In this document: positions 10,601 to 60,955 of the stretch, piece after piece
Position numbering within the stretch: the first letter of the stretch is position 1
Layout: each line of letters starts with the position of its first letter
Source of the DNA: Ruditapes philippinarum
Lineage: Eukaryota
Length of the DNA stretch: 64,000 bases
NCBI RefSeq assembly: GCF_026571515.1
Contig: NW_026859905.1
Location: 1 to 64,000, forward strand
Direction: 5' to 3'
The notes under the pieces: generated by a model
Database searches by the model: none
Told to the model about the DNA's origin: nothing
What the model saw: the letters and a program-made list of their open reading frames with translations, nothing else
Position numbers and translations under genes: made by a program

Positions 10601-13600
10601 GGTAGCATGGGGGAGATATCGTATATTTCGTTACAACAACCTTTGAAATAGACAGACATCTCACACACAGTATGGGAACCAGTGACATTTTTGTTTTTAA
10701 ATTATAACTTTAAATATGAAATTCTTATAGTAAAAGCAACACAACATATATTAAGTATACGCCAGACATGTACCATGTCTGTTGAAATCGGAAGAAATTG
10801 AATAGCGGGTAAACATGAAGGTAATTTGACGTCGTTGACGCTGTCAAAGGGCTCCATGATGCTATATATGAACTTTCCGGACATTCCTCATAGATCTCAA
10901 AAAAAAAAGAAAGAAAAGAAGACTTGTGTGTCTCTTCAGTAATATTGGAAAATTACACACTTTTGAAAATGGAAATGCAGTCAAATAATATTTCCCCAGG
11001 TCAGTCTTTTAAAAAGCACTATTGTGATGATTAATTACCTCGTTAGTGCCGTCCCTGACCTTCTTACATCTAATATGAGCAAGTCTATTTAGTTTCTTCA
11101 GCATGACTATCTGTAACATACCTTCCATACGCTTACTCTCAATCTCTGCTGCCTGTTTATATAGAAATATCATATAAGTATAGTATATAAATATCGGATC
11201 GATAATATCATACCATTTGGATAAATACATATACATATAAACAAGTTTTTCAGTAAGTATACAAACTTAAGCCTTATTTTTTGTCAAAAAAGTGTCCAAA
11301 AGTGCTGTGTCAGTCACAAGTCTCCATTTTTGCTTATGACAACTCCTTTACCGACAAAACTACTGATTAAACTTGCAAAGCATGGGCCACTTAAAGATCG
11401 ATTCTATTCAATTGTATAACAGATTTTTTTAGTATAACCTTTTAATTCTTCTTTATACATTACAGACAACCTGCTTAATACTGAATAGTGACAAATTATG
11501 TTACTGCCGCCAGTATACATGTACATAATTATATACAAATATACAAGAAAAAGGAACAAGCATAAATATAAAATACATATATACTCAGTGAAAAGATTGT
11601 TGATTAAATTTCTATACAAGAATCCAAAGAATCCTTTAAGAAGTATTGAGGAGACATCTTAACAACTAAAGACAAGAAAATAATGATATTTACAGCATTT
11701 TTGCCTTTCGACTCTTTCAATGTCTTGATTTCAGCAATTGTTCTCTGAATGTCTCCACAAGCACTCTGAAAAAGCTCCACATCTTTATTAACATCTCTCT
11801 TTTCAACTTCATCTTCTTCAGCATAAAATAATTTACGGCCAATATTAACACTTGGTACTTCCTGCTTTATCTAAAATACATACATATACTGTACCTAAAA
11901 TTTTCCCACAAAATGGAATATTTTAACTTTTGACATATTGATATAGTCTAAAGATTGTTGTTTTTTTTTAACTCAAAAGTGTTCTCCTCAAACACATTAT
12001 ATTACTCCAAGAAAATCAAAACAGGTGATCCTTTTACAATTTATATGGTATGTCACTTTATTTTGAGATGTCCCATCATTGCCATGGTAATAGGGAATTT
12101 AAGATCGAGTATGCTGTTACAAAGGCTATGGTCCAGAAAATATTTGTGCCAAGTTTGATATTTAAACATTTTTTATAGTTTCATTTGAACTTGTAACAGG
12201 AGGCTTTCAATGAAAACTGCCATTTTTCACAAAATGCTCATGTGGTAATGGGTTAATAAGTATTTAAAGGAAAGCACCTGTCGAAAAGTTATACACATGT
12301 CATTTCATTCAATTAATCTTAAAGGCATTATGAAATAAACTTTTTAAATTAACAACTAAATAAGTACTGATTAAATAGCATGCTATAAAGGCGGAGCTTT
12401 TCAACAACTAAAGTCTGTTTCAAGATTTATCAATATAGAACAATATGTTTTGAGTTTTTTGCCGACATAGTTATGTCAATTGTCACAAAACACAACATGA
12501 GAGATCTGCTGCAACACCTTGATTTAATATTGTCATTCTGACAGTGTAAGAAATTCGGATTTGAATCCACTAGGCTGGTCGGACTATCAGATTGGAATAT
12601 TAACTATCCCAAAAGACATTTCACTAGCATGATTCATTTGTTCAAAACAGTTGTTTATATTGCCTCTGAAAATATGGTCGGGCTTGGTACTGTGAAAAGT
12701 TGGTAGCCCGAGGAGAAATTTAGTAGTCAGGGGCTATCAGACTACTGCTAATTTCGAACACTGTTCTGATTGGCTTAAGACTAGTTCTGGCTTCCAAAAC
12801 TTTATAAGCTGCTTTTTAATATTTTTGTTTTTCATCTGATGGGGCATTAAAGTTTTGGATTAGAACTGTTACAAAACATAACCAGAATAACGTAAGTTGA
12901 TTTAACCTTATTTCCATTTGCAAATGCCCTTGTCCCAATCAATTCTTGTGCATTTTATGATAAAACAATTATTTTAATATCTTTCTATACTATTTAATGT
13001 ATCAAAATATTAATACCGTCATTAAAATTGCCTGTTTAAATGTGAAACATTAATAACACGGACTACAGTCGGCCATGACATTTAGGAGCTACGCGAGACC
13101 TCGTATGACGTCATTCGGGGAACCGATTAGAGCAGAGTCGTGTACTTTATTTGGAACATCTTTGTTGACATGATTTTAATATTTATAATTCAAGATAATT
13201 TTTTTAATTTATTTTCTTAAACTTTTAGTACTTAAATATGATTATTTTAAATACAAAAGTCAGTAAATCACTTTTTTTCAATATGATATTAAAGTGCTGA
13301 ACTGTCTAATCCCATGCAAAACCTATGAAAATAAACAATAGTCTTTTTTCATTTTTAAAAAGTACTTAGTATCTATTTCATTTTGAGTTCTCATTTATTT
13401 TTAGATGAAGTCAATTTATAGTGATGTTGTGGGGTTTTTTTTTATCTGTATATCACCAGAATGTCAGGTAGAAGCTGGAAAGATCTTGACTCAGTCCAGT
13501 AAGTGAGAGTGAATAAGTTATAAGAACTGCTATAGGCAAAACAGTGGAAAACAGGACCTCCCAACTTCATTACTAACTTAAAATGATGTTATTGATTACA

Positions 13601-18750: not shown

Positions 18751-21700
18751 GCTACATTAACATGGCTTGGTGTATTTCAAACACTGCTGTCAGTGTCATT
18801 GACTGTTGTTTTCATGTTTATGTTGTTCCAATACATGCACACAGAGATTCCTGAAGGGGTTAAAGAAGTATGGGGTGCTCGTATCTTAGATACAGCTCTC
18901 CGTACAAACGGAAAGTTTGTAAGTAAATTCTAATTTTATATTTGTTGGTTCATAAAAAATAGGTAATGACAAACATGTATACGGACAGTCCCATCTATAT
19001 TGATTTAAACACTTTTACAATAGTCTGAGGTAAAGTAAAACTCCAATCTTCCCTATTCTGTGATCACCCTTCATATATATAATTTCACTTAGTGTGGTTT
19101 ACCACCATGATCACAACATGCTGGTATAAAGGTACTTTGAAGCTTTTTAATCTATGGATTTTGATAAAAATCGTACCAAACTTTTTATATTGAAAGAAGT
19201 ATGTAATTTTACAACACAGCGGGCGATGCATGTGCAAATACATTGTTTTATTTTCCTCTTCTGTATATTATTCACGTCGATAAGCTAAAACTCCATGGCG
19301 GTATAAGGATGTGAAAATATTTGGAGTGTTTAGTTTTTTTAATGTTTATGGCATACACTTTTTATCAAATTTTCCCCAAAATTCATAAATAATAATTTCT
19401 AATTTCTCCATAGCAACATTTTTCAGTATCTTTGCTTCAGCTAGTTTATAAGCATTCCGCAACTGTTTTAATGTCTCTGAATCTATTTATATCTTGACTA
19501 GATGTGTTGCTGAGTATGTAAGAACAAGGCAGTCGCAGATCAAATATATTAAGATGAAGTAAAATATAGTTGTGGGATTTTGAAATAGGCAAGTGGCCTC
19601 AAGCTGCAGTGCGCATATGTCACAGTCCAAACGCTTGCGCGATCGTTTTATCGCTTTAAGCTGAAAATAAGGTTCTATCTAAAACGTTTACTGCAGTGCC
19701 AAGGTTGCGTTACGAAATAAATAAAAAATCTTGCATTTTTTTTGAAAAAATAGAATAATCAACGGTAACATGTAACTTTTTCAGATACTTTCCTTGCATA
19801 ATTTTGGTATAACCGGAGGATGTTGTCGACCTACAAGAAAGCTCGTGAACGTTGTGCTGACAACATTAATCACTGGTAGACCGTTCGGGCTGGGTCCAGA
19901 TCCAGAACTAGAGGTAAACATCGTTTATGAGAAATTTGTGTAACAACTGTTCATTAGGTTTAACTTGTTGAAAATACGCGGTCCGAATCTTATTCCTTTC
20001 ATTTTCTCAATATCTGGAAAAAGTGATCTATCGGAAGCATCAAAATCAGCATAATTACATGAAAATTGCAGACTCGATTTGATTGAGTCTGTGCAACATT
20101 CCTCACGACCTCTACCACTGGCTTGAGCAGTACTTAATTTTCAACACTTATAAGTGCTGGAAGGACCAGAAAAATATAATAGCACTGAAGTGAAGCATAG
20201 GACACCTTTTTAAGGCTGCCACACGGCACATGACATCTGATGTTACGTATATCTGGATAAGTTAGAAAAAGTATGAATCTATAATCATAACTTAATGGCT
20301 GAACATGAACAGAGTACTGTGACTATATTCTCTATCTATCAATCGAACCTAAAATAATTATACATTTAAGCAGCATCTTGGAATGGTGAAAAGTTTCAAA
20401 GCAAAGATCGCTTACAAAATATTGAAATTCGGACGTGTACGACGTTTTGAAAACTTCACAAGCTTGTCTTGTGTATTCAATACTTCAGCCAATATTGTTT
20501 TTATTTTCAAATGTTATTATAGATATACGATATGGAAGTTGATGGTGTAAGTGTACGAGTATATGACCCTGTAAACACCAGTGGTTCTAAACGCCCAGTT
20601 CTCGTGTATTATCATGGTGGCGGATGGTCATGGCTTAATGTCGGTATGTCAATTAAATAGATTATAAGTATTATTTAATGTTTAATTAAAACAATAGTCA
20701 ATGTAGATGTTAAAATCTGTGAAACAGCGCAACTAAATATATATTTTAGAATAGTAATACATTCAGAGAAAAAGAGCTATTATAACACAAGTCTACTTAA
20801 GTAAAATGAAGCCAATAAAAACCGTAAATTAAAAGAACCTTACAACAGATTGCTTGGTCACACCATTTAGAGTCTTATATAATAATGAGATTAAAAGGAA
20901 CTCCACTGAGGTACAAAAGCCTAAAACATAAAGTTTGAAATTCTTGCCAAGATCAACGGATTCAATTAAATGGAAACATTATGCAAGTGCGTGTAGAGAA
21001 AATGAGAGAAATCCCCAGAATTAATTAAAAATCTATTTCTATACGCTTCTTAGCCAGATCTGAGCTAAAAGTGGCACAATGTTTTTCATTTTTGGGTCAC
21101 TTAATTCGCGCTATATGAAAATATCAATCTCCTACGCAGTGATCTCCCCTTACAGCAGGATTAGATGTGATTACAATTCTGCCAAGGGAGGTAATCAGTG
21201 TGAGGAGTTTGTGAAAATATTATCCAGGTAAAACGTAGTAAGCAAATGATGAAATTGTGCACATAAGCGACTGATCTAGATCTTTATCGAATGGTACAGG
21301 AAAATCTAAAAAAAAAAAGAGTTTTCCAGTCCCTTCATGTAAAAAACAATTACAAAAAAAACAACAACAACAACAACAGTGGAGTCCTTTTAAAACACAT
21401 CCCCGAATTAATGTCACACAGTTAATGGTTTAATTTTAGATGTTTACGATCCAGCGACAAGAGAACTTGCCAAGAAAGTGGGAATGGTTGTTGTTTCAGT
21501 CAAGTGAGTGATTCTATATCCTTATTTTTTAAATCTGCAGTTTGAGAAAATATTTGAATGTTTAATAGTGATCCCGTCTCAATTTATTTTACAACTTTTT
21601 ATATGTGTCATGAAGGGGTTCTGCTGGAATTTGAATACTATGGTAAAGCTTAACAAGAAATCATTCCTAATCTACACATCTATTGTTATATAGAGGATAT

Positions 21701-22899
21701 TGAATGAGTGTAAGTTCAATACTGAATTTATTGCACGAGTTGAATAAAATTATATTATGCGAGCCTCTGGCGAGCATAATATTATTTTATTCAACGAGTG
21801 CAATAAATTCAGTAATGAACTTACACGAATTTAATATTCTATTTATCATATACCCAAAATAAATACCGTTTAAAGTGAAATAAGAGTCATTTTTCATTGA
21901 CGCGACTATAGTATAACGCTAACATTTAGCGCGTCTTTACACTATGTTTGTATAACGCTAATGACGTCACGTCAAAATATATGAACGGCCGTGCAATACC
22001 ATTTTTACGGAGTCGCAAAATCGGCACGGGTGTGTGATAAAAACGAAATAAGGGATGATATATAATATGCACTATTATTTAAGAGACAATGTTGTTAACA
22101 TATCTGCATTTTTTTCAGTTACCGACAGTCTCCAGAGCATCCACATCCAATCCCATTTAACGATTGTTTAAAAGCAACTGAATGGGTTCTAAAGAACCCA
22201 ACAAAGCTAAAAATAGACTCTACACGCGTAGCAATATCAGGAGACAGCGCTGGTGGACATCTAACCGCGGCAGTTTCGTTACGCCTTAAAAAGAAGATCA
22301 AAATCCAAATTCCTATCTATCCATGTCTGCAACTTTTTGATTTGCAAACACCTTCTTACATTGAAAATAAAGATTTTATCCCTGGAATGTTATGTGATGT
22401 TTCCATGCTTTCGTACTGGTTAAATTACGGTAACATTAGTTACGAGTACATGGACATGATACTCGACAACCAACACACATCACCAGCGTTAAAGAAGTCA
22501 AAATATGCAGACAACGTTTCTCCACGTTGGTACATGAAAGAATACATTCGGTCAGAAAAGTTACGGGAAATGGAGAAGGCAACAGACTCCGGCAATGAAG
22601 CACTGTCTAAAACAGTGGAGAAAACAATACTGGATCCATACTTCGCTCCTTTAATGGCTGACGAGGAGGACTTCAAAGATCTTCCTCATACTTACGTTTT
22701 GACAGCAGGATATGATGTTTTACGAGATGATGGTTTGATGTATTATCAGCGCTGCAAGGCGGCTGGAGTTCGAGTACATCTTGCTCATTATGAAGACGGG
22801 TTTCATGGGATGATATTTTTCTTTGCGGGACCGATGCCTTTTAAAGTCGGTATCCGGGCGATGAACGATCTTGTTAAATTTCTGAAAGAAAATTTGTAG
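18751..22899 (+). CDS. Arylacetamide deacetylase / neutral cholesterol ester hydrolase 1-like (HSL/GDXG alpha/beta hydrolase); start exon not resolved
   Basis: Exons 18751-18918 (hydrophobic anchor ...LLSVSLTVVFMFMLFQYMHTEIPEGV), 19785-19913, 20523-20643 (VRVYDP...VYYHGGGW), 21440-21503 (VVVSVN), 22119-22899 (YRQSPEHPHP, nucleophile GDSAGG, DVLRDDG, catalytic-His motif FHG). Phases are consistent. Confidence 0.9.
21691..22045. mobile_element. Intronic repeat with a ~150-bp 5' hairpin and an asymmetric internal/terminal inverted repeat
   Basis: 21694-21840 folds back on itself (…GTAAGTTCAATACTGAATTTATTGCACGAGTTGAATAAAAT… / …ATTTTATTCAACGAGTGCAATAAATTCAGTAATGAACTTAC…). TTTATCATATACCC (~21842) pairs with GGGTGTGTGATAAA (~22028). 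Confidence 0.6.
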
Positions 22900-23319: not shown

Positions 23320-24027
23320 CCTATTACAAACTAGAGCAGAGAAAATTTAAAAAAACAACTTTGCATGATTTATGGAATCACGATTGGAATAAATTAAAAA
23401 AAAAACAAAAAAAAAACGGGGGGGGGGGGGTCGCCATCCTACTTATTAATTTATCTGCCTCTGTGTGAGCCCTCGGAAGCATTAATCACAATAGTTACAC
23501 ACGTGAAAATTATAGGTTCGGTTTGACTGAGTATATACATGTGGAATAATAAAAAAGTGCAACATCCCTCACGCCCCCTAGCACCGGCTGGAGCGGTAGA
23601 CAATTTTCAATGATCCCAAAGGACCAAAAAGTATAACAACACTAAAAATGAAGTACAGCCAAGCAACACTTCGTTTGATTTTACCGATTTTATTCTATTG
23701 TTGCTTATGCAAGTTATGCCCATTTTGTAAAAGAAAAATGCAATAACATTGATGCATAGCAGAATATGTTTCAGATAGAATTGTTTGAAATTTTGCACAA
23801 TGACTGAAAAAGAAGTGACAAATATAATCTGAATTAGAATTAAGTATCGGTATTCTTGAATTTCTGCTCCTGAAAGTGACCATAAAGTGTTCAGAGACAT
23901 ATCACTGAACAAAATGTGGGACGGCGACCCACTTTTTTTTATCAGTTAGTTTTAATCACGATTTTCTTTAATCCTGCAAAGTTTAAGAAAATTCCTAATT
24001 TTTAAATTTTTGCTTTGTAAAAAAGGA
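23320..24027. mobile_element. Old MITE-like element with diverged long inverted repeats
   Basis: GGGTCGCCATCCTACTT (~23428) vs AATGTGGGACGGCGACCC (~23913), and ACTTTGCATGATTTA vs TAATCCTGCAAAGT, in inverted orientation. Confidence 0.45.
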
Positions 24028-25722
24028 CCTAAAATTTTTAATTAAAGTATTTTCCTTTATAAGACGTTATTATCAGGCTGATGTTGTCTGGGGAAAACGC
24101 CCACATGTGACTGCCGATCCATGACTACCCTAATTGTGACTAAGTTAATTCCTTGTACGGTGTAATTTGTCTTGATTTTACATAGCAATAGTCGGAACGC
24201 CTCTAAAAATACCATTTGGACAGATTCCATGATAATACAGTAACCCGATTAGCGCATAATATTGTGTATATGTTACTACATGTATCTTTATATTTAAAGT
24301 TTGCAGCATATTTTTCTATCACAGTTTACACGTTCGTTTTACGACAGTTGCATTTAGTCGTGTGCAAAATAATCTAACACAGTTTAAAAGAAAAAAAAAC
24401 TTGGAAAAGGTTTGATCTATCGGAAGCAATAAAACAACAATATTATATTAAAATTGCAGACCCGGTATGATTGAGTCTGTTAACGAGAGATAATGAAAAA
24501 TGCAATATCATGATCCCGAAAAATATAACACTGATGTGAATTAAGAGGCAACTTTTTGCTGTTAACATTCATCTAGAATTGATAAAATTAGCTAAATTTT
24601 ACACTACAAACTGCACCTTGCCCCGGACAGCAAGTTGACTAACGGAATTTAAATTACGCTTTTTTCCTTTATTTCGTGACTCTGACGGAGTACATATGTA
24701 CTATATACGCTCCAACATACTATTTCCTTTTGGACTGAATAAATAAATTATGATATGTAGGTTCACAGTAGAGAGAGGCATTTTGAACCCTGTATTTCCT
24801 ATTCCGCATTATTTCCTTGTCACTGTTTGTGTTCGATTTTTAACCAATCAAAGATAATAGGTCGATCTTGCCCGATCTTATTACGACTCACATTAACATG
24901 TACGTACACAATTTAACATGTAATACCTATTAGTAATTATCACGAATACACGTACGAGAAAATAGGAAAAAATGTTCTATCGTAGATATAAATTAATCAT
25001 TACAAAAATATTTATGTCAACTGCAGTAAAATGTTATTTCATCTAAATAACACAAATGAATGTCATTATAGTTATGAGCATACACAACAAGTAGTATAGC
25101 AGAATTGTTTATTTCCTTATATATTTTTACAAAACAAAAACACATCTATGCCTTTAAATAATTGCAAACATAATTATAAATGGGTTTTCCAAAATCGAAC
25201 AGTTGAAGTTGTCATACATTGTTGAGTGCAATTCTATTGCACGAGTACACAACTGTAACACCTATATGGACGATGTTCTAAATCTACGTTTATACAAAAG
25301 AAAGGATCATTATTTGTTAGATATTTCAGTAACAATCATTTTAAAGGAGGATGAATTAATACTATCCAACTGCATTGTGTAAAACATTTCCTCCAACCTA
25401 TGCCTGTGATGAACCATATTTTATGACCAATAACAAAACAATAAAACAACATTGGTGTAAATGAGGCGCCTTGTTTTACACATTGACAAAGCGGCAAAGT
25501 CTTTCAATAGACAGGTCAAGTGAAATGTCACTTCCTCGTAGTGTTTAGCTAGCCCCGTTTCGTGCTAATTAGTACTAAAATATTAATACTTTAGTTTTTT
25601 TATAGTTACCTTTTTATTGTTTATTAGTTGTAAGCATATTTGTTAATGGTAACATCAAATCATATTTTACACATGTTTACATACTTTAAACATCCTTCAC
25701 TAGCTATAGCACATATTCACCG

Positions 25723-25733
25723 TTATAAATAAA
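25723..25733 (+). promoter_or_regulatory. TATA-box candidate for the Asn-rich protein gene
   Basis: TTATAAATAAA lies about 30 nt upstream of a short putative non-coding exon ending at the GTAAGT donor near 25807. Confidence 0.45.
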
Positions 25734-26215
25734 GAGCAAACCCCAGTTATCGGTGCAGCTGATTCAAACTTTGCATCTGAATTTAACTTTACGGCTCGGC
25801 ACTTTGGTAAGTTATCATATTTTTTCCCTAAGAATATTCTTCTTTAGGTTTATGAAGATTTGTTAAATTTGCATGTTTATTTTTTTTATATATTCTTATA
25901 TTTATCTTTCATAACAGTTACAAAATAAAATGCATATATAGAAGACGTACAATGTGCATTTACATATATCAATCTTAACTTAAGTTATATCTGTAAAATT
26001 TATCTGAAACATTCTTCGAGTAACTTGACTTTTGATGAAAGCGACAATCGCTTGAATATCATGGACATTTATAACTTAATGATTTTTTGAATATTTAATA
26101 TAACATAATGTTTAGAATTTCTATTTACATTTATAGTTTAAATCTAGTTCTGATTGTAAGTGTACATGAATCAATATTCTGCAAATTGGGCACATTTAAT
26201 TTTACAGAATTCAGA

Positions 26216-29120
26216 ATGAAGGTTACCGGCGTTGCTGTCAGTTTGTGCATGATGATCTGTGTTGCTGTGTGTCAGAACAACGACTTCAATATGTTTAACA
26301 TGAATCGTAACTGGGGTGCGTAAATCATTCAATATTTCGATTGTCATAATAATGCATACATTTAAAAATATCAAGTACATTCTTCGTATTTTTCCAAACA
26401 CTTCATTTAATTTCAGTTGATTTCTCAAATGAGTTCGTAACTTAATGGTAGAAATGTCGAGGAAAAATATGAATGCAATGTCCAAAACCTATGTTTTAAT
26501 TAAAGCCTCATTTCATGAATTAAATATCCAAATAAATGTGTAAATATCGTTGTCAATGTTTTCATAAATGAATCTCTTAAATTGATAAGAGTACTAATAA
26601 ATTAGTATTATTATGTATTTCATGAACTTTTTCCTATAAACATGTATACCATGTTTAATCCAGTGAATATTGAATTGGATTTATCTTGAGATGATACAAA
26701 TACATATAAGTAGACGTAATATGAAGAAATGATATACTTAGCAAACATATGTGTTTATAACATTCAGATCTGAACAACAATAACAACTGGAATGGTTTTA
26801 ACAACAACGACTGGAATGGATTGAATTTCAATAGGAACAACTGGAATGGTTTCAATTCTAACAGGAACAACTGGAATGGATTGTTTAACAACATGAACAA
26901 TGGGTTGAACCGTATGATGAATAACATGAATATATTGAATACCAACATGAGAAATATTAACGGAGGCAGAGGTAAGGATATGTAAATTTCTTTTAATTAA
27001 AACATACTTGATCTTGGCATAGCATTCTCTACTTGTTGAAATCGCTTATGATAAACAACTAGTGGCAATACACATTTAGGGTAACAACCTATATTTATTT
27101 AATTGGACCCCATTATGAATGATTACACAAACACATAATCTGACCAATGTGATCATTGCAAATTTACCTCTTTTGAGGAGGCCCTACCCTTTTACAAATG
27201 ACAAATTGAACAAAGGTTCGCTCTCCGTTAATAATAACCGGTAAGACATTGATTCCTCTAATTACTCTAGAAGCATTCCCATACAGTGGTGAAATAAAAA
27301 TGTATTTTCATAAAACTAAACAATAGTGGTCATTCTTTTTCGGCTTTAGGTATCTATTAACACAATGACTTTCAGCGGTTTGAATAATAAAGTCCGCCCG
27401 CTTAGCTAAATAGGGAGAGTATGTCACAGGTTCGATTCTTCGGCGAGGTGTAATTTCTCCGTTACAAATGACACTGTAATTAAAGAAGACTGGACATTGC
27501 TTCCATTGAGTTATTTACAACAAATTCATAATAGATAAATTACATACATGTGTTTAAAAGATGGAGAAATAAATATCCAAATATATATGTGCCGGGTTCA
27601 AAAAACATCAGCCCTAATTTCCGGAAAGAGTGTAAAATAATATCCGATTTAGTTTGTATTATCACGTTGTTCCAATAGTTAATTTCGGCCGAGTATATTT
27701 AAAAAAAAGTTATTTCCTTTATAACGTTTTTTCTTGCAAATTTTACTTCAGGCTTAAGGTGAATCCTTTAGCAATTTCATTGAAAGTATTTTGTATATAC
27801 ATTCGTATGTTCATTTTAGACTTAGTGAGATTCATTTTGATAACACAATTCTATATAAAACTTAAATAAATTCTGTCCATATTGCTTCATCAATGAGTAG
27901 GCCTGTGCCAGTTTCTCATTATAAACAAACACTTAGTAAATATTATTATAATTTAGGCGGTTATAGAATTATAATGTTTTTGCCCATGAGAATAGTGTAT
28001 TAAAATATGACGCCATATTGTTAACACAACGTGTTAAATAAATCAGACGACCCGGCAAGAATGTCAGAAGGCATATTCGATGATGCAAGGGCCGCCTCTG
28101 CTAAACATTTTTACATGACCGAGCCAGTACATCCAGTGACTGTCATTTCAAATGTGGATGGGTCACCTGCACATGACCTTATGATGTCATCGAGTGAAAA
28201 TGTAATGATTGTCACGTCAGGGGTAGATGATCCAACAGAAGGTCACGTTATAGTTGCGGGTGGTGACAACATTGGAATGATGCACAAAAAAGATGTTTGA
28301 TCATCTTATTATCTGCTCTTATGTGGTACATCAATAACCCATTTATAACCGGAAATAGATGTAGATTTGGCTTTTATAGTTACTAGACAGACGGCATAGT
28401 GGGGATATATTATTCTACAATCCTTTGAATCCATGTTATTATCTCGCAATAACCCTATTCATATTTTGTCTTTAGACTTCAACTGACACGAACGTTGCTT
28501 TTTACTGAAGTTAATTTGTAGAAAATCAGGGATGAGAAAGGATATTAAGCTGAAAATCGTTAAATTATTAGCAAATGCAAACATCTGAGATAGTAATAGA
28601 GAAATGAATATTTTATTTCATTTTTAAGTCTATTTACTGACATTTTTACTTATTTGTACCGTTACAAATAGCTCATTACCTATTTGTTCAATTTATAAAC
28701 ATTATGTTCAAAGTCTTTTTTTTTATTTACTGGTACAAGAAGTTCTGCTATTATTCTAACACTTTCTCTCAACAGCAAAGCAATGTTTATATATATGCTT
28801 TATAGTATATGTATTTAATTTAGATAAATGATAGATGGTAGGTATATATTTACCACGCAAACATCTTTTGTTATCAATTAATGATATATCATACCATGCG
28901 GTATATTAGAAAGACTATTAGTGAAGTTAGCTTGTATTTGTGAAATAAATTGGGATTTGACGTGTAGTTCTATAAATTATTTATAATTAGCCAAACTTTA
29001 TACACATAGTGATTTTAGGCACCATATAAGTGCTAAGACTTTAAACATTGTGTTATTGTTTTGTTTAAATGTATCATTTTGACTGTTTCAGGCGGCTTCG
29101 GAATGAAGTACGGAAGATAA
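26216..29120 (+). CDS. Small secreted Asn-rich low-complexity protein (110 aa), unknown family
   Basis: Exons 26216-26315 (MKVTGVAVSLCMMICVAVC-QNNDFNMFNMNRNW), 26768-26971 (DLNNNNNWNGFNNNDWNGLNFNRNNWNGFNSNRNNWNGLFNNMNNGLNRMMNNMNILNTNMRNINGGR) and 29092-29120 (GGFGMKYGR*). Both introns are phase 1 GT-AG. AATAAA at ~29193. Confidence 0.8.
27391..27450 (+). mobile_element. Degenerate tRNA-derived SINE head
   Basis: A-box-like GCTTAGCTAAATAGG followed by B-box-like GGTTCGATTC. Too truncated to be a tRNA. Confidence 0.35.
28047..28300 (+). CDS. Candidate alternative terminal exon of the Asn-rich protein gene (84-aa acidic tail)
   Basis: The CAG acceptor at 28044-28046 joins the phase-1 donor at 26971 in frame (G|AC = Asp), giving DDPARMSEGIFDD...GMMHKKDV*. 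Composition looks coding against an AT-rich background, but the polypyrimidine tract is weak. Confidence 0.5.
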
Positions 29121-29961
29121 CTCCGTCCTGACTACACCGGTTGCCTTTTGAGATTTCACACTGCATTCATCCTTGCTGTCATTTGTATCATCAATAAAAT
29201 CTGTGAAATTGGTCTATTCATTACCTTTTTTCTCCAGCAATTGCTATCATTACTGTAAAGCAATTAATTTGTCACATTTTCTACAACACTATCCTTTCGC
29301 GTTTATCAACAGTATGTATATTATATATACAGTTGAAATTTGCAATACATTTTAACTGCAAATGATTTCAACGTTATGAATAGCCGCCATTATGCTTTAT
29401 CTGTTTTGAGACATTATATAAAAAGAAGCAACAATGTAAGAAATGCAAATTAAATGTTTATTTAAGAAGAAACCTGCTCCTCTGTTGGTACAATTGTAAA
29501 ACAAATGTTATACATACAGATGATACAATGTAACGCAATAAAACACTTTATAAGAGATAAAAGATATAAATACATAATAACTACATATAAATCAAACATC
29601 TCACTGCCAACTATATGAAATACATTTTTACATCAGGGATCAAAATAGTCATGCAAACAAAGAGTACACACCTATTCTATGATTTCTTTTTAGGAATTTA
29701 TTGCTAGAGTTACTGGTATTCTACATACTGTTTCTAAAATAAATAGTATCCCTGTAGCTTTTAGTTTAATGTATATAAAGTTAATTCTGTGAATACACCA
29801 AAATAACGTCAGTGTCTTTTCCTTTTGAATTACCAGTCTGTTAATAGTGTTGATTTTACAGGTCACTGTAGAACAAACATTAAAAATAATTTGCTAGTCT
29901 TATAGATATGTTTGGATACGTCAAACATAAACATGTAGTCAGAATTGCACAGCGTTTCATT

Positions 29962-30849
29962 TCATCTACCGTCCAGGTTATCACTTATTGAGTTATCTTC
30001 ATCACCTGCCTGATATTGAGCATCTTTATTATCCTTGAACTCGTGGTTTCTTCCTGACTTGGTGTCATAGTTTTTGTCGACTTTGTCGTCTGGATTTTTA
30101 CCGTCGTAATCCAGATTTCTTTGTGAATGAATAAATACTGGTATCACAGCTTGCGGTCTAAGTTGAAAATTTAATGCATTTGAAAATCCATGACGGAATT
30201 GAGCATTATTGTTTTGTAGAAATGGAGGGTTTCTGAATTGAGCATTATCTGAAAATGGAGGCACTCTATACTGATGTACACTGTCAGGGTATTTGTTATT
30301 TTGAACTTGATTTTGATTAAGGTGCCTCTCAATATTACCTATTGTTGTGTGTGATGATGGAGGCTTTACACTAGATTTTCTATCCCATTTACTATTATCA
30401 AACAGTGTTTTAGTTTGATCAAAAATAGCATTTATATTTCCCGTTTGTAAATGTCTCGAGTCACCATTTACTATTGGTCCATGGCCCGCATTACGTTTGT
30501 CAGTTGGAATAGTGGCATCGTATACACAGGTGTATCCTACAACAACCTTTTCATTTGTACATGGGACACCAATTTTCATCTGGCGACATTGGCCTCTTGG
30601 ATTGATGATAAGATGTGAAGCGTTGCTTTGATTTAAGTCGATGCAACAGTTCTTGCACCAATGTCTTTCTTTTTCAGGAATGTGCAATAACTGCGGGGTA
30701 CCTCTGACAATAGTCCACGGACAGCTTGACTTCAAGTTGATGTCGTTGCTGACTGTATTCATATTTCTCCACACTCTTGCCCATGACATTATACCACTGT
30801 TACTGTATACAAAACATTCGCTTCTTGACAAAATTGTGAGAATAAATAT
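29962..30849 (-). CDS. Secreted protein with a divergent IL-17-like cystine-knot domain and a ~185-aa N/Q- then D/K/N-rich tail (main exon; first exon uncertain)
   Basis: 888-nt exon after a TTTTCAG acceptor. Hydrophobic IFILTILSRSEC start, then KSSCPW...WCKNCC...GQC...VVVGYTCV, resembling the IL-17 RSxCPW and VxVGCTCV motifs. Candidate upstream donors lie near 31810 (TATA-like element at ~31914) or near 31078. Confidence 0.65.
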   Translation of the reverse strand: MFILTILSRSECFVYSNSGIMSWARVWRNMNTVSNDINLKSSCPWTIVRGTPQLLHIPEKERHWCKNCCIDLNQSNASHLIINPRGQCRQMKIGVPCTNEKVVVGYTCVYDATIPTDKRNAGHGPIVNGDSRHLQTGNINAIFDQTKTLFDNSKWDRKSSVKPPSSHTTIGNIERHLNQNQVQNNKYPDSVHQYRVPPFSDNAQFRNPPFLQNNNAQFRHGFSNALNFQLRPQAVIPVFIHSQRNLDYDGKNPDDKVDKNYDTKSGRNHEFKDNKDAQYQAGDEDNSISDNLDGR

Positions 30850-32565
30850 CTGAAAATACATATAATATGATATTTAAACATATGATTTTACAATACAGCA
30901 AAATAGGTTCATTATGAATAAAACAGTAAAATCAAATCATCACCAACATAATTATCATCAGCATCATCATTATTACCATCATTATTATCTTTATCATATG
31001 ACAACCATTATTCTCAGCTCCATCATTACATAATATCATTATCACTTTATAGTTTATTTCCATGCACTATAAATTTACCATTTCAAATTAAACAATTATG
31101 TTTCAAAACGTAATATGCACTTTTAGAAATGGTTCACCCATCCACCACATTGTCACATTGTATGTAGTAGTATATTCTCTCAACTGATCACTTTTTCTGT
31201 CTGTGTATTTATTTTATTAACTCAAATTTTAGTTTACCCAAATGTAAAGGGTTACACCTAAACTATCCCTCCAATAGCAGTAGGTAAGGAAAAATGAAAT
31301 ATTTAATATTAATTACTAGTTGAAAGATTATCAGTAGTTAAATTGAAATTGATGATGGAGTTGCCTCGCAGAATAAATACTGGAAGATATTATTATAGGC
31401 GCTCGTGGTCAGGGTGTGAAATAAATCACATTTATCATTACAACCACCTATCAACAATGTAATGAATAGTACAAACATAATCACATAACTACTACACTTA
31501 TTTTAAAGCAATTTAACTAAATTTTGTCAAATCACGCTTGACATTGCTATTGGTGCAAAAAAAAAAAAAAACTTTCGCCAGTGATGACAGGTTAATCAAC
31601 AGTTAATATATCGATCGGGTACCAGTGATGTAACTGTTTGATTAACCATTTTGTTTAGTACTTCCAACAATAACTTTCAAACGAGTTTAAAGTTCATTGT
31701 AGGACTTAGACAGACCAAATGTTTCTTAAATATCGAATGATGTTTATCAACAAAGAATGTCTTGATAAACTTGAGAAGAATATTACAGTTATAAAATAGT
31801 GTCTGGATACTTGAAGTAAACCAAGATGTACGTCATATGGCTGTTCCTTGAGTGTCTCTTCAAGATCCCGTAAATCCGTGTAAATCATAGGTCCTTACAG
31901 AATATCATTTTCTTATATAAGCTGATTACTACAGTGTCATATTTATACAAACTTGCGGATAATTTCATCAGGATACGTGCGCACAAACTGTACAAGTTGC
32001 GAACATACAAAATTGTCATTTCAAGTTTGTTTCTTTAACTTTTTGGAACGGAATGTTTTTTATGTTTTTTTTTCATTTTGATGTAAAGAAAACTTTCATA
32101 TATATTTAAGCTTCTAAATCAGCAGAACTTCGGAGCTTCGAGTAAATATCAATAAAGTTATCTATGTAATAAGTATCTCAGCAAGTATGTTTTCTACATT
32201 TTGTAGAGCTATTTCGATGTTTCTTTAACAAGTTCTTTCCAAATTGGAAAGTATACATTTATTCATTTTCAATCAATAATACTGTTGATTTTATAAAGAA
32301 AATAAAATATTTTGTAATGATAAAACTTCTCGCAAAAGAGAGTTAAACGTTAAATAAGAATAACATTAAGTATATAACATAATATAATAATATTAACGTT
32401 ATTATGGTATCACTTTAACTGAATATAACATAAAATTACCTTTGTATAACATTTAGTTTAAGTATAATATATAAAATATGTATTTCAAGTATAACATATA
32501 TATTAAAAACTAGCCTCATGAAACAGATTCTACCCATGTAACCAGTGCAGATCAAAATCAACTGG

Positions 32566-39563: not shown

Positions 39564-42047
39564 ATGAACAATACATGTCAAGGTTGGTTGTTACATAACG
39601 TGTTATCATATAGAGTGACAGAGTCTGTAGTGAGAAAACGTTTAAGGATTTTTTTGCTGATTCTGGTAGCAGCGTTTCTGATACAATTCTCTCTTGTGAA
39701 TAAATATTACAATGACAGAGGTATGTTCTGCTTGCATAGTACATGTATTCTTATGTTTTTAATTAATTATATAGATATAGATATTTAATATATGTTTTTA
39801 TTGGTATTGCATTGCGTTGTGCTGTATTTGCAATTTACTGCTCTGCATTGCATTTGCATTATACGATTTATATTGTATTGTATTTTATTGTATTGTATTG
39901 TATTGTTACAATGTAATATAACGATTACTTACTGTCTCCGCAATGTGTATTTGGATGATTATAGTGTCGATATCAATTTTAATATTAAGACTCGCGGCAA
40001 AGTTGTCCTATAATGATCGAGCTTTCAAATTAGATAAGGTTAATGCTATGTAATTTCAAAAATTGGATTATTTAAGTATATACGTTCGGGCTTTCAATGT
40101 TATTATTAAAATATTTGCTGCCATAAAATGCCTAATGTACCGTTTCGTAATAATGTGATATACACTTATTTAAGTCACTTTTTGTATTGATTTGAAGTGT
40201 TATATGAGTAAATGTTCACTTTGAAACTTTTATTTACCAGGGTTTCTGGAAGAAAATACTGATAATGTCGGGCGGGCGTTCAAAATTTTTGTGCGTTGAA
40301 CTCCTGAATTTCTCGACAAATTTAAACTAAACCTTTACAGTTGTCCCAAAGTGCATTGCCACATTGTAATTTAACTATTTAACCTATTTATGTTCCTTTG
40401 TTGTTGTTGTTTTTTTTAAAGATGTGAATATAGAAAAATATCCTTCAATGCGCAACTCAAAGCTTTCACATAATCAATATTGTCACAAGAGTCGGGATTT
40501 TGTGAATTGGTCATTTGTGTTAGTATTATGACCTTGATATTTAACTAAATTATTTTGTCATGCATAAAAGAATACAGTTTTCATATTTACTAGATCTGAG
40601 ATTCAAATCCCAAGCGCAGCAAGTTTTTTTTTTCTTGTATATATTATGATTATGCAACCGTTCCTACATTTTCTGGGATTTCTACCAAATTGTTACAGAA
40701 CTATTGTCATTAAGTGCCCTGGTGCATAATTCTTTGGTATTTATTTTGTCATTTTCAGGGAAATTATTTGTTGTTGCTTGCTTGCTTTTCGTAAGATGTA
40801 AGACATGGAAGTAAAAGAGGAAGTGCTCTGATTTTTCTGAATGGTTTAACTTTCAATGGTTTTATTCAGTGTTACTTTTAATGGTTTTGAGACAACTGTT
40901 TTGTTTTAATTATTTTTTTACGTTTTCTTCAGAATTGACGATAATTGGTGAAAGAACGAACGAGATCAGAACAGCAAACGGTTATGATGTATACCACCAT
41001 TCAAATGACTTACATTTAAAATATGAAAACCGTATAGAGCATGTCAAAAACATCTGTGAAACGGATGGATTAACAAAACCAAATAACTTCACATTTCTTC
41101 ATCACAATTATTGTGACATTGAGGGTTATAATATTTCACTTTGTAAGGTTCCGAAATGTGGATCTACATATTGGATGCAGGTAATAAATGTCTTGAAATC
41201 TGGAATTTCAGACATAGATTCTATTGTAAAAAAAGACAGACGAGAACTTCACATAGTTAAAGAGACATGTAATAACAAATTAGTAAGATTATCCAGACAA
41301 GCAATGAAAATCGTTCTGATCGGTCGCGACCCTTACGCACGGATATATTCTGCTTATGTTGATAAGTCATACCTCGGCTTTAAAACAAATAATAGTACAT
41401 TGAAACGAACAAACAATTGTTCCTTTGTTGAACAACCGTTTATAGAATCCTTTCAGGAGTTTCTACAAAACGTGTTTGATGATTTGAATGAACGTAAAAG
41501 CAATTCCCACTGGACACCGGTCTTTATCCTCTGTAATCCATGCCAGTCAAATATATTTTTACAAATAAAACTTGAAGAGCTCTCCAAAGATATGAATTAT
41601 ATATATTCACGGATAGGATTTAGCGAAGACCTACAGACACAAATTAAGAAACTGTCGACATGTAGAATAGATACTTTGACAGGAATAGCGTCTACAATAT
41701 TTCAAAAACACATGGACACAAAATGTAAGAATAGCTTTCTAATAGCAAAACGGCTGTGGGTGTCGTTTCAGTTACAAGGATATATTAATGAAAAGTCTAA
41801 ATTTCCAGGACAATTAGCTGATTTCAAATACACCAATTCAAGCGAGGTAGCGACAAAATTGTTTATGAAACTGATATCGAATGAAATGTCAGCAAACCCA
41901 TTATCAAAATCTGAAGCTAATACACAGAGGTACACAAACCTTGTCCGTGCATACAGGAATGTTCATTCTGATAGTATCTTGAAAATACAACATTACTTTA
42001 AAATGGATTTTCTATTATTCAATTACAGTATGTTTCCACCACAATAG
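39564..42047 (+). CDS. Carbohydrate sulfotransferase (Sulfotransfer_2 family, CHST11-like), type II membrane protein, ~423 aa
   Basis: Exon 39564-39720 (RKRLR followed by TM segment IFLLILVAAFLIQFSLV), phase-1 intron, exon 40933-42047. Contains 5'-PSB CKVPKCGSTYW, 3'-PB RDPYARIYSAY, HWTP..ILCNPC and C-terminal DFLLFNY. Confidence 0.9.
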
Positions 42048-47690: not shown

Positions 47691-49947
47691 TTAGAACTCA
47701 CATTTATAGCAGTAGAAGTCATCGTCCCTAACTACAGGGTCTTCACTACATTCTGTGTGCAACCACTGATCACAGAGGTCACATTGTACCCATAGATGTT
47801 CCACCCCCAGTTCGCGCTCCTCAAGAAAACGTATTTGACAACGCATACATGTCACATTATCCTCTTCTTGACTTGAAGACTCTTTTGCTTTTGATTGTTT
47901 AACATTCTTTCTAGTTGTTCTTTTCCCAGCTGACCTCAAATTACTAGAACTGCTGCCTTCAGATGTGTTAGTATTTCTCTTACTTTTTGCTTTTGTTTTA
48001 CTGTTCTGCTTCAGCAACTGAGACATATACTTTCTTTTTGCCTTCAGCTCTCTTTCCTTAAATGCTCTTATTTACTTAAGCTTTTCAGAGACATGCTACG
48101 TAGAGATTCTGATGATGTGAGGTTGTCCGGTAAGTTTTCAAGTTGTGACTTTCGTTTTGGTTTTGTTTTCTGCTCTGCTGATGGGAATGTAAGCGACACT
48201 TTCAATATTGGTGATAACACTGGTGATCTGATTTCTGTCTGAACTGAGTCTTGGCTTTGTAAAGATGCAGCTGATGCAAGCAAATCAAGTCCAGAGACAG
48301 GCTCTTTTTCAACATTTTGTTCATTCTGTACAAATATATTGTCATGATCACTTTCCAATATGACCTCAGCAGGCTGAGACTTTGTTACCACAGCTGTGTC
48401 CTTAGAAGTTTTTTCTGTCAGAGAGTCTGTAGCATTTTCTGAAGTTTTAGGCTCTTTGGTTACAGTTTCACATCTCGATTCAGACAACAGCTTCTTATAT
48501 ACATGGAAGCATGGAGATTGACCTTGAATATCATATCCCTCTTCCAGACGTTTAGCGTATTTTGCCTTTGTAGGTGTTGTTAGTGCACTTTCTAATGCTT
48601 GAAAAGCCAGTGATGGTCCATGCGGTGGTTCCACAATTGCGACTGTTGTTGATTTACTTGAGGAACACTCGGTATTGGACTCTATCTCCAGAGATGCTGA
48701 CTCTGTGCTACTGAATGTTGATACCTGGTTTCACGTGCTCCTTAGTGATCACAGTGCTGTCAACAGGATAAATTCCAGAGGACCGAAATGCATTGATAAT
48801 TGTCATTGGCTTGTAAAACAACAGAAATGCCTCTTTCAGTTTTTTCTGCAAAGTTCTCTTTGCTGATCGGTGTTCCGGGGCTATTTCGTGTGTGGGTTCT
48901 GACAACCTGGTGCCAACGCTGTTTCAGGGGTCCAAACACCCCAACATCAAGTGGCTGCATTAGATGTGTAGCATTCACCACTATTCGGTAAAGTTCAATA
49001 CCCCTTTTACTAGCTAACTCAAATGCTGCACTAGAAATATGACTGCTGACACTGTCGATTAACAAAAGCACTGGGCGTTCCTCACCAGCATATTTATGGA
49101 AGTGGTCTAGGAATTTCTCAAATGTAGGAGCATCCATCCAGCCTTTCTTTGTGTACGCTATGTCAGATCCATAAAGAGCACAGTCATCGGATTGTATCCT
49201 CTGGGTTTAGGTCAGGATAAACAAAGAAGGGGGGCATCATTGTTCCATCTGCTGACCCACAGAACATTAGAGTAAGACGCTGTTTACTGTGACCACCAGA
49301 CAAATGAGGCACTTGAGTTGGTGTTCTGCTCTTGTTGGGCCAATGACTTTGCCGAATGTACTTCCCATACTGAACCCTGTTTCATCAGCATTCCATATGC
49401 GGGTTGGCTTATCAATCAATCCTTTCAATGACTAAAAACTCTCTAAATGAACTGTACCATTTGTCTGTCTTCTCTTATGTAAGTTTAGCTCTACAAGTTT
49501 CCAGTGGGGTTTCAGTTCTCATTTCAACGATGTGACTATTACGCCTCATGGATGCATAGTACCAGTCATATCCAGGCCTATTATTAGCAAATGGTGTTTG
49601 TTTTTTTTCATTGGTGGCTAATTTCTGAACTAAGTCCAAAAAATCTCCCATGCCTCGACTGGCCATTTCTTTCAGCCAATGTGCCATCGCCTCTTCTTCA
49701 GTTAAAGTGAAAATCGGCTGTGGACCATTTCGACTATCTAATTCAACCTCTCCAAAAAGACACCTATGTAAATAACCATAAGATAAGCCATACAGTTCTG
49801 ATGCTTTCCTGACAGTTACCTCTTTTTTTCTATGGCCAGAATTGCTCTCTTGCACCGGAGTGATTTCCCAGGTGAGCCCCTGTTGTACTTCTTTTTAACT
49901 GCGTTTGCTTTTTTGACAGCTGGACTCTGATGTTTTGGTTTCCCCAT
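47691..49947 (-). pseudogene. pogo-type transposase: psq-type HTH, CENP-B HTH, DDE_1 and C-terminal PHD finger; frameshifts and at least one stop
   Basis: VTVRKASELYGLSYGYL; FTLTEEEAMAHWLKEMASRG; IWNADETG; GWMD; LLIDSVSSH...HLMQPLDVGVFGPLK (35 residues between the last two Asp); CMRC...WVQCDLCDQWLHTEC...FYCYKC. Confidence 0.9.
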
Positions 49948-60300: not shown

Positions 60301-60955
60301 GCGTGAGACGTGACATATACCAATATTTGTATATTGAAGAAAAACATATGAGTACATCCAATGAAGATTCATTGGAGACTTGCATCAAACACTGGAACAT
60401 ATCTGAGTGATTCAATTGGTAAAATAAAGCTATTTGCATAAATTATCTGTTCAAGTTTACTGTAAAGATGTAAACATTTGCGGTGTTTTTATCACTTTTC
60501 CCTCTCCATGTATTTAAAACCACACCAGGGGATCCGTAGATTGCATTTTAAACAAATATATAGAATTACACTTAATAATTTTAATTGGTTTAGATTATCA
60601 ATTATGCATACATCCTAATTATAGATCCATCAGCTTAGCTTCCGAAGAAAAGCATATAAAACATGTAACAAATGGTCAACAGATTTGTATTTCAATATCT
60701 TCTGTAAGAGATGTTTGCCTAGTTTAGAAAACAAAATTCGTGGTGAAGATAATCATAAGCCTGAAATCAAATTTAGTAAAAGAAAGATCTAGAGACTTCT
60801 AGAGAACGAAAACGGTTATTTAAAGGTTTGTTCTCTTCAATACATTTATCTCGCTAGATTTATGTTTTGATTTATTAAAAGTAAAGGTAAATGTTTAACT
60901 ATAGATGTGCTTTAGGTCTTAATAATTTACGTTTTTCTCCTTTACTTTTTCAGAG

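What the first reader, a model, noticed from the sequence alone, without database searches (positions are those of the whole stretch)
26216..29120. Secreted ~40% Asn protein with NNWNG-type repeats and a possible amidated end
Seen: a ~19-aa signal peptide, then a ~91-aa mature region with 38 Asn by hand count. It has four WNG(F/L) repeats, a Met/Asn-rich segment, no Cys, and ends ...GMKYGR*. Established: C-terminal X-G-R is a canonical amidation signal, and N-rich aromatic-spaced sequences are prone to amyloid-like self-assembly. Inference: a lineage-specific self-assembling extracellular material protein (shell matrix, periostracum, adhesive or egg coat) or a defence peptide. The ORF track misses most of it because it is split across exons.
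Basis: partly seen in the sequence, partly recalled or inferred. Interest (0 to 1): 0.7.

Follow-up and report, generated by a model that had tools for sequence, protein, structure and literature searches.

The report
Clam asparagine protein with switchable tail
A spliced Manila clam gene encodes a small, predicted secreted protein that is 42% asparagine and ends either in a short basic tip or in an 84-residue acidic tail also encoded in a second animal, and it likely self-assembles into an organic shell-associated material such as the hinge ligament, because that relative's repeats resemble the scallop rubber protein abductin.

Summary
Its two introns are bridged in 6 of 6 and 5 of 6 RNA-type contig sets. 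RefSeq holds this long form as Ruditapes philippinarum XP_060605803.1, misnamed 'xylanase XylA-like'. An unnamed second animal has an orthologue with the same exon plan. It keeps the cassette (first 16 codons pN 0.05 vs pS 0.82), the Y-G-[K/R]-stop end and an aromatic-Asn-Gly-hydrophobic motif, but its spacers are Gly. Its GGFNGMNGG repeat is the abductin consensus with two Gly-to-Asn changes. Best reading: a lineage-restricted, self-assembling low-complexity matrix protein of shell-associated organic material (0.55; hinge ligament the leading site). A Gly-rich amidated antimicrobial peptide is the main rival (0.2). Tissue, secretion, amidation and fibre formation are untested. Verdict: new variant of a known kind.

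The parts
25724..25729 (+). TATAAA box, candidate promoter
   Evidence: Sequence; a similar TATA sits before the 5'UTR exon of the orthologue. One contig (X12) reaches upstream of it to 25713 or beyond, so the start site is not fixed.
25713..25806 (+). 5' untranslated exon (start uncertain), donor TTG|GTAAGT
   Evidence: Joint 25806^26208 in X5, X10, X12
26208..26315 (+). Exon with ATG 26216, predicted 19-aa signal peptide and first 14 mature residues; phase-1 donor
   Evidence: bridged in 6 of 6 contig runs; residues 1-33 of XP_060605803.1
26768..26971 (+). Repeat exon: four [N/R]N[N/D]WNG[FL] units (30-nt period) then a Met/Asn segment, ending NGGR
   Evidence: contigs cover it end to end
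28047..28325 (+). Cassette exon, 279 nt: 84-aa acidic His/Met/Val tail with conserved DDPA[RK]MSEGIFDDARA and VDDP.EGHV.V blocks; stop at 28298-28300, 25 nt before its donor
   Evidence: Joint 26971^28047 in X5 and X6, joint 28325^29092 in X6; RefSeq isoform X1; orthologue 45-48% identical; purifying selection
29092..29120 (+). Last coding exon of the short isoform, (G)GFGMKYGR-stop; candidate Tyr-amide signal
   Evidence: Joint 26971^29092 in 5 of 6 contig runs; orthologue (G)GFGKGYGK-stop
29121..29212 (+). 3' UTR with AATAAA at 29193
   Evidence: contigs end at 29180-29212

Best explanation
This spliced, single-copy clam gene likely encodes a secreted structural protein that self-assembles into an organic shell-associated matrix, most likely the hinge ligament or periostracum, and its cassette exon switches the encoded end between a short basic tip that is predicted to be amidated and an acidic tail that would bind mineral or metal. 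Shown: exon plan, two splice forms, composition, the charge switch (+5/-6 here, +6/-1 in the orthologue's predicted forms), and conservation of the cassette and of the Y-G-basic-stop end. Inferred: (1) the leader exports the chain. (2) The repeated aromatic-Asn-Gly-hydrophobic units act as sticky turns that drive condensation, separated by Gly spacers in the orthologue (rubber-like) and Asn spacers here (more hydrogen-bonded, possibly cross-beta). (3) In the short form a carboxypeptidase and the amidating enzyme PAM would expose a terminal Tyr-amide next to a Lys, usable for cross-linking as proposed for abductin. (4) The long, minor form would tether the same sticky core to aragonite or ions, or release the acidic peptide MSEGIFDDAR, which lies between basic residues in both species.
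For: Splicing; the RefSeq long isoform is identical to my model. The orthologue L012 has the same predicted five-exon plan with phase-1 coding introns, and its cassette hits only this locus in the genome (E 2e-13). Cassette: alignment score z 26 against shuffles, stop at the same aligned column, pN 0.054 vs pS 0.82 over the first 16 codons and 0.36 vs 0.74 over 74 codons. The repeat is under constraint between the two orthologue contigs (pN 0.009 vs pS 0.165). The shared [FW]NG[FLM] unit occurs 4, 10 and 9 times against shuffle means of 0.09-0.31, with 0 of 5000 shuffles reaching it (pattern chosen after seeing the sequences). Orthologue mature chain: 111 aa, 47% Gly, 9% Met, 12% Phe, 1 Pro, 3 Lys, Tyr at positions 6 and 109. 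Abductin: 116 aa, 58% Gly, 1% Pro, 3 Lys, 14 Met, terminal Tyr, repeat GGFGGMGGGX (PMC9999432 section 3.2.5). Six windows of the orthologue match that motif when Asn may replace Gly (shuffle mean 0.1). Fast-evolving low-complexity repeats, Met-rich regions and GN repeats are typical of mollusc shell and ligament matrices (passages of PMC4897951, PMC7591529, PMC3896809). Both AlphaFold models have low confidence (mean pLDDT 45 and 41), compatible with disorder but made from 1 and 4 sequences.
Against: No tissue, proteome or activity data were found: library descriptions were not on record, and 0 papers held the peptides or accessions searched. The window protein itself fails the abductin pattern (12% Gly; best window 4 of 9 identical; 341 of 2000 shuffles do as well allowing Gly-to-Asn), so the ligament link rests on the orthologue. 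That match is modest: 4 of 72 placements of Phe and Met score as well, all sharing one Phe-to-Met spacing of roughly 7 possible, and strict identity is not above shuffles (184 of 2000). Cassette joints were seen in only 2 of 6 contig runs, both from one study code, with 28-30 letters on the short side (10 further joints were not shown). The orthologue's splicing is predicted from DNA only, no synteny was found, and its species is unknown. Gly-rich amidated antimicrobial peptides have the same outline as the short form.
Confidence: 0.55

Rival explanations
1. It is a Gly/Asn-rich, C-terminally amidated antimicrobial peptide of the acanthoscurrin/ctenidin/armadillidin type; the long isoform is a neutralised precursor or storage form with an anionic C-terminal piece.
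For: The short forms are about 10 kDa, Cys-free and cationic (net +5 and +6, pI 11.6 and 11.1), and end Y-G-[R/K]-stop in both species. Acanthoscurrins (about 10 kDa) and ctenidins are Gly-rich, cationic and amidated (PMC6784228 passages). Armadillidins carry GGGF repeats, several as GGGFNR (PMC7017220 Table 2), like the orthologue's GGGFNG. A variable core beside a conserved acidic piece is a common defence-peptide layout (recalled).
Against: The orthologue's repeat carries no charged residue over about 90 aa, whereas Arg exceeds 10% in 14 of 17 armadillidins. The gene is single-copy, and the repeat is conserved between the two orthologue contigs rather than diversifying. An anionic piece present only in a minor splice form fits a pro-domain poorly.
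Confidence: 0.2
2. It is a peptide-hormone or neuropeptide-like precursor: the low-complexity core is a granule-condensing spacer, and splicing chooses between an amidated GGFGMKY peptide and the acidic peptide MSEGIFDDA(R).
For: The two best-conserved pieces are short and bounded by basic residues in both species; the amidation-type end is conserved; Asn-rich segments can drive granule aggregation (recalled).
Against: The sites are monobasic, and in the orthologue the dibasic RR is followed by Pro, which usually blocks cleavage (recalled). There is no Pfam match. Two of the seven residues of the putative amidated peptide differ between species, and the bulk of the protein is a constrained repeat.
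Confidence: 0.1
3. It is a structural protein of another secretion: juvenile byssus, mucus or sand-binding adhesive, or egg/sperm coat.
For: It has the same sequence logic as the best reading; silk-like low-complexity proteins occur in byssus, cements and egg envelopes (PMC4944945 passage).
Against: It has only 1-2 Tyr and 1-3 Lys, unlike DOPA/Lys-rich adhesives (recalled). The Phe/Met/Gly pattern of the orthologue is closer to ligament proteins.
Confidence: 0.12
4. The cassette is a poison exon or splicing noise, and only the short form matters.
For: It has an in-exon stop upstream of a final junction and weak splice sites (acceptor pyrimidine fraction 0.41, donor GTACAT), and it was seen in 2 of 6 contig runs.
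Against: The protein sequence is conserved while synonymous sites are saturated, the stop lies at the same column with a different codon (TGA vs TAA), and it is only 25 nt (43 nt predicted in the orthologue) from the junction, inside the roughly 50-nt window that escapes nonsense-mediated decay (rule recalled).
Confidence: 0.03

Closest known systems
Abductin, scallop hinge-ligament elastomer (PMC9999432 section 3.2.5 read whole; PMC13052691 passages)
   Same: A leader of about 19 aa and a short mature chain (116 aa vs 111 in the orthologue, 91 here), almost no Pro, high Met, Phe-x-x-Met spacing, terminal Tyr and 3 Lys in the orthologue; the orthologue repeat equals the consensus with two Gly-to-Asn changes.
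   Different: The window protein has 12% Gly, 42% Asn and Trp-containing units and does not match the consensus. No acidic alternative tail or amidation signal is described for abductin in the passages read. Homology was not tested by alignment.
Molluscan repetitive low-complexity-domain (RLCD) shell proteins: shematrins/KRMPs, GN-repeat nacrein/N16/N66, Met-rich LMP and NU-5 (passages of PMC4897951, PMC3896809, PMC7591529)
   Same: Secreted-type, lineage-restricted, slippage-prone repeats, Asn-Gly dipeptides, a Met-rich segment, an acidic plus Met-rich region (as in NU-5), and a basic/Tyr C-terminus.
   Different: No GnY repeats, no RKKKY-type end, no carbonic anhydrase or Cys domain; the acidic part is switched on by a stop-carrying cassette exon.
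Glycine-rich antimicrobial peptides: acanthoscurrin, ctenidin, serrulin, armadillidin (passages of PMC6784228, PMC7017220)
   Same: Cys-free, cationic and about 10 kDa with C-terminal amidation in the arachnid peptides; GGGF-type repeats as in the orthologue.
   Different: Arthropod haemocyte peptides; armadillidin repeats are Arg/His-rich. The clam core is Asn/Trp-rich or uncharged, and no activity was tested.
RefSeq label 'bifunctional endo-1,4-beta-xylanase XylA-like isoform X1' (XP_060605803.1)
   Same: The same 185-aa sequence as the long isoform.
   Different: No glycoside hydrolase domain. The name probably comes from the Asn/Gln/Trp-rich linker of Ruminococcus XylA (recalled).

Membership tests
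Abductin | Gly near 58% with Gly-rich random coil | tested here: not met
   Window 12% Gly; orthologue 47% Gly, or 68% Gly+Asn
Abductin | Repeat GGFGGMGGGX | tested here: not met
   Window best 4 of 9. Orthologue at most 7 of 9 identical (not above shuffles); 6 full matches only if Asn stands for Gly
Abductin | High Met, about 1% Pro, short secreted chain | tested here: met
   Met 9% in both, Pro 0-1%, 91 and 111 aa after a predicted leader
Abductin | Tyr at both ends of the mature chain | tested here: inconclusive
   Orthologue Tyr 6 and 109; window short form only Tyr 89
Abductin | Sequence homology to scallop abductin | not tested
   No full abductin sequence came from any call
Abductin | Major protein of the hinge ligament, elastic when cross-linked | not testable with these tools
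   Needs ligament proteomics and mechanics
Shematrin/KRMP | GnY repeats and RKKKY-type C-terminal signature (PMC3896809) | tested here: not met
   One Tyr in the window short form, end MKYGR; orthologue end KGYGK
Nacrein / N16 GN-repeat proteins | GN repeat joined to a carbonic anhydrase or other folded domain | tested here: not met
   No Pfam domain in either isoform or the orthologue
Gly-rich amidated antimicrobial peptides | Cationic, Cys-free, with C-terminal amidation signal | tested here: met
   Net +5/+6, no Cys, Y-G-[R/K]-stop in the short forms; amidation itself not shown
Gly-rich amidated antimicrobial peptides | High Gly content | tested here: inconclusive
   Met by the orthologue (47%), not by the window protein (12%)
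Gly-rich amidated antimicrobial peptides | Haemocyte origin and antimicrobial activity | not testable with these tools
   Run libraries not on record; needs assay
Q/N-rich prion-like domains | At least 30 Q/N in 80 residues (criterion recalled) | tested here: met
   39 of 80 in the window protein; only 22 of 80 in the orthologue
Functional amyloids | Cross-beta fibres in vitro or in vivo | not testable with these tools
   Models uninformative, pLDDT 41-45
GH10/GH11 xylanases (RefSeq label) | Catalytic glycoside hydrolase domain | tested here: not met
   No Pfam family at E up to 1

The most novel reading that the evidence does not exclude
This is the missing clam counterpart of abductin. An ancestral Gly-rich ligament rubber protein kept its aromatic-Asn-Gly-hydrophobic stickers while its Gly spacers were rewritten to Asn in the Manila clam, turning an entropic elastomer into a prion-like fibre former. 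A conserved stop-carrying cassette exon lets one gene make both the cross-linked, amidated matrix chain and an acidic chain or released decapeptide that couples the matrix to the aragonite fibres of the calcified ligament.
Probability: 0.12. Interest if true: 0.8.

Novelty: new variant of a known kind. Interest (0 to 1): 0.47.

Why it matters
Secreted low-complexity proteins are common in molluscs, so the class is not new. What is unusual is a natural pair of orthologues with the same stickers, ends and exon plan but Gly versus Asn spacers, plus a conserved splice switch that flips the terminus and net charge. If the protein is in the ligament, it would give a second sequence type for the compressive bio-rubber known from scallop abductin, whose cross-links are still unknown (PMC9999432), and a direct test of how spacer chemistry sets rubber versus fibre behaviour. 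It also supplies a conserved tryptic marker (MSEGIFDDAR) for existing clam proteomes and corrects a misleading xylanase annotation.

Tried and rejected
Homologue searches: the repeat exon found 0 proteins of 36-118 aa and the cassette 0 of 147-2000 aa, although the RefSeq long form was later found in the collection, so these word-based blanks are weak. The HMMER scan gave 8 hits. Two are real (P0003, this species; P0006, orthologue); I set aside the other 6 as long repetitive or unrelated bacterial and fish proteins. No relatives in viral contigs; PDB sequences E 0.74 only; Atlas gave one 0.75 feature hit and TM-scores of 0.36 or less for the long form, nothing for the orthologue tail. Paralogues: NNWNG[FL] pattern, 7 matches, 3 in this exon and 4 isolated single units, 4 control matches; GFNGMNG pattern, 3 matches in what looks like a dispersed repeat; abductin-motif pattern, 3 matches, one real Gly-rich gene; the orthologue repeat as query gave one tandem-repeat hit. 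No similar gene in 200 kb of the 334 kb downstream of the window or in 8-93 kb of C4640 besides that one gene. No run was listed as RNA on record among the holders. Raw runs X21 and X23 gave no spliced joint; X23 is no test. Contig depths (105 and 44 in one study code, 3-6 in four others) cannot rank expression. 3'UTR similarity to the orthologue is marginal (39 of 1000 shuffles) and promoter similarity nil (234 of 1000). Signal exons do not align above chance (84 of 1000). No synteny with the neighbour gene. Alternative donor 26309 gives an open 108-aa frame, but contigs use 26315. Stop read-through or selenocysteine in the cassette was considered because the frame stays open into the last exon in both species, and rejected as unlikely because the stops are TGA and TAA. 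Fold searches were not run on the low-confidence models. No complex prediction was run. Passages of PMC8217771, PMC9100110 and PMC5854119 gave no matching protein; their supplements were not read and may bear on shell localisation.

Full report
Observation. The model is exact. ATG lies at 26216, and exons 26216-26315, 26768-26971 and 29092-29120 give a 110-aa chain. After a hydrophobic 19-aa leader come 91 residues with 38 Asn, 11 Gly, 8 Met, 7 Phe, 7 Arg, 5 Trp, no Cys, and the end GGFGMKYGR-stop. The repeat has a 30-nt period. Among 690 open frames of at least 60 aa in the window and 200 kb of flank, only this exon and an (AAT)n microsatellite reach 18 Asn in 60. I could not run SignalP; the leader is judged from hydropathy and an A-x-C cleavage pattern.

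Transcription. I laid 8 of 24 listed runs. In the 6 contig runs, which the tool only guesses to be RNA, 26315^26768 is bridged in 6 (5 study codes), 26971^29092 in 5 (4 study codes) and an upstream untranslated exon 25806^26208 in 3, all with GT..AG ends. The 2 raw-read runs showed no joint (0 and 42 reads laid). No tissue labels were given.

Runs X5 and X6 (one study code) join 26971^28047, and X6 also joins 28325^29092. So 28047-28325 is a 279-nt cassette exon with a stop at 28298-28300. Inclusion replaces the 9-residue basic end by an 84-aa tail with 14 acidic residues, 5 His, 7 Met and 15 Val/Ile, and net charge goes from +5 to -6. These joints have only 28-30 letters on their short side. 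However, the 185-aa long form equals RefSeq XP_060605803.1 of Ruditapes philippinarum letter for letter, which names the species; that model may rest on overlapping reads. Its label 'xylanase XylA-like' is wrong: no Pfam family is found. The stop is 25 nt from the last junction, within the distance that usually escapes nonsense-mediated decay (recalled).

Relatives. Every part of the gene is single-copy in the genome. A HMMER scan with the tail found one true relative at 48% identity, and a metagenome scan returned 2 contigs, L011 and L012, holding its gene. They differ by about 7% in introns, so they are alleles or close species, and count as one lineage. L012 shows the same predicted plan: TATA, untranslated exon, signal exon, repeat exon, cassette, last exon, with phase-1 coding introns. 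Its tail hits only this locus in the clam genome. Synonymous sites are saturated, yet 15 of the first 16 compared cassette codons nearly keep their residues (pN 0.054, pS 0.82); over 74 codons pN is 0.36 and pS 0.74; the stop falls in the same column. The tail is therefore selected as protein. The last exon reads GFGKGYGK-stop against GFGMKYGR-stop, so Tyr-Gly-basic-stop survives with a Lys/Arg exchange, as expected of an amidation signal, though only two lineages are compared. No synteny was found.

The repeat is not conserved as NNWNG. The orthologue is 47% Gly, 21% Asn, 12% Phe and 9% Met, built of GGFNGMNG-type units. What both share is aromatic-Asn-Gly-hydrophobic, 4 times here and 9-10 times there, unmatched in 5000 shuffles (pattern chosen afterwards). 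Aromatic content is the same, about 14%. The spacers changed from Gly to Asn. The window protein meets the recalled Q/N-rich criterion (39 of 80), the orthologue does not (22).

Comparison. The orthologue resembles abductin as described in PMC9999432 section 3.2.5 (read whole): length 111 vs 116, 3 Lys, terminal Tyr, about 1% Pro, high Met, and the consensus GGFGGMGGGX with two Gly-to-Asn changes (6 windows vs 0.1 in shuffles). The control is sobering: 4 of 72 Phe/Met placements do as well, strict identity is not above shuffles, and the window protein does not match at all. I therefore do not file the gene as an abductin; it may work like one. Shematrin and nacrein signatures are absent. Gly-rich amidated antimicrobial peptides of arthropods share the outline of the short form and remain the main rival. 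A second clam gene on contig C4640 has the same 5' plan and GGFNG repeats but no cassette match and no shared motif, which suggests the Gly-rich state is older; its kinship is not shown.

Mechanism, committed. The chain is likely exported. Aromatic-Asn-Gly-hydrophobic units likely act as sticky turns (Asn-Gly favours tight beta-turns, recalled) that condense the chains into a matrix, rubbery with Gly spacers and more ordered with Asn spacers. The abundant short form would be trimmed to a Tyr-amide beside a Lys and cross-linked. The rarer long form would anchor the core to aragonite or ions through its acidic His/Met tail, or release the conserved MSEGIFDDAR peptide bounded by basic residues in both species, as a possible parallel to the ligament peptide LICP (listed in PMC7591529; its nature as a short acidic peptide is recalled). 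I give this 0.55, about half of it to the hinge ligament. Shown: gene, splicing, composition, conservation. Inferred: secretion, amidation, assembly, site and role of the tail. Structure predictions were uninformative.

Literature. A full-text search for three peptides, a repeat word, the accession and a guessed locus id found 0 papers; searches found no description of this gene in their listings. Seen as passages only: PMC13052691, PMC12571646, PMC3291537, PMC9508354, PMC8217771, PMC4944945, PMC5854119, PMC4897951, PMC3896809, PMC6784228, PMC7017220; for PMC7591529 the abstract, part 1 of the Discussion and passages; PMC9100110 had no occurrence of the terms. No supplements were read. The 2011 Manila clam shell proteome paper was seen only as a reference, and older ligament chemistry papers were not held, so a prior peptide match cannot be excluded.

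Verdict. A real, uncharacterised, mislabelled gene of a familiar class, with an undescribed conserved splice switch and an instructive Gly-to-Asn spacer swap. New variant of a known kind; interest 0.47.

Noticed in passing
G000:C4640 48686-47845 (-), locus L036: Secreted-type Gly-rich gene with TATA, untranslated exon, signal exon and phase-1 repeat exons; GGFNG repeats, one exact GGFGGMGG abductin-like unit, GCGRYGCG and a basic YRPRYPKYGRK region; 3' end unresolved. It is a second candidate ligament or periostracum protein.
   Followed up: partly
window 29962-30873 (-): Convergent neighbour = XP_060605805.1, uncharacterised, predicted secreted, Cys-containing N-terminal half and Asn/Gln/Asp-rich tail; no Pfam; one 61% identical homologue; covered by contigs in X14.
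   Followed up: partly
window 28301-28325; L012 5810-5852: After the cassette's stop the exon stays in frame and open into the last exon in both species (exon lengths 279, 279, 285; orthologue donor predicted); unexplained, possibly a relic of a symmetric exon.
   Followed up: partly
window 25315 and 25702-25713: One contig (X12) reaches upstream of the TATA box and links to 25315, hinting at a second start site or exon.
   Followed up: no
window 21686-22041 and about 23486-23607: High-copy repeat elements covered by hundreds of divergent contigs in RNA-type runs.
   Followed up: no
window 22099-22899 (+) and 40815-42047 (+): Abhydrolase_3 (AADAC-like) exon and a Sulfotransfer_2 gene.
   Followed up: no
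window 47691-49894 (-): Fragmented DDE_1 transposase with a PHD-finger frame, likely a decayed pogo-like transposon.
   Followed up: no
window 60926-61597 (+): 223-aa frame with a signal-like start, Thr/Ser/Asn-rich linker and Cys-rich end; no Pfam hit.
   Followed up: no
window 11009-11870 (-): Two exon-like frames that recall THO complex subunit 5 (recalled; no Pfam hit for the fragments).
   Followed up: no
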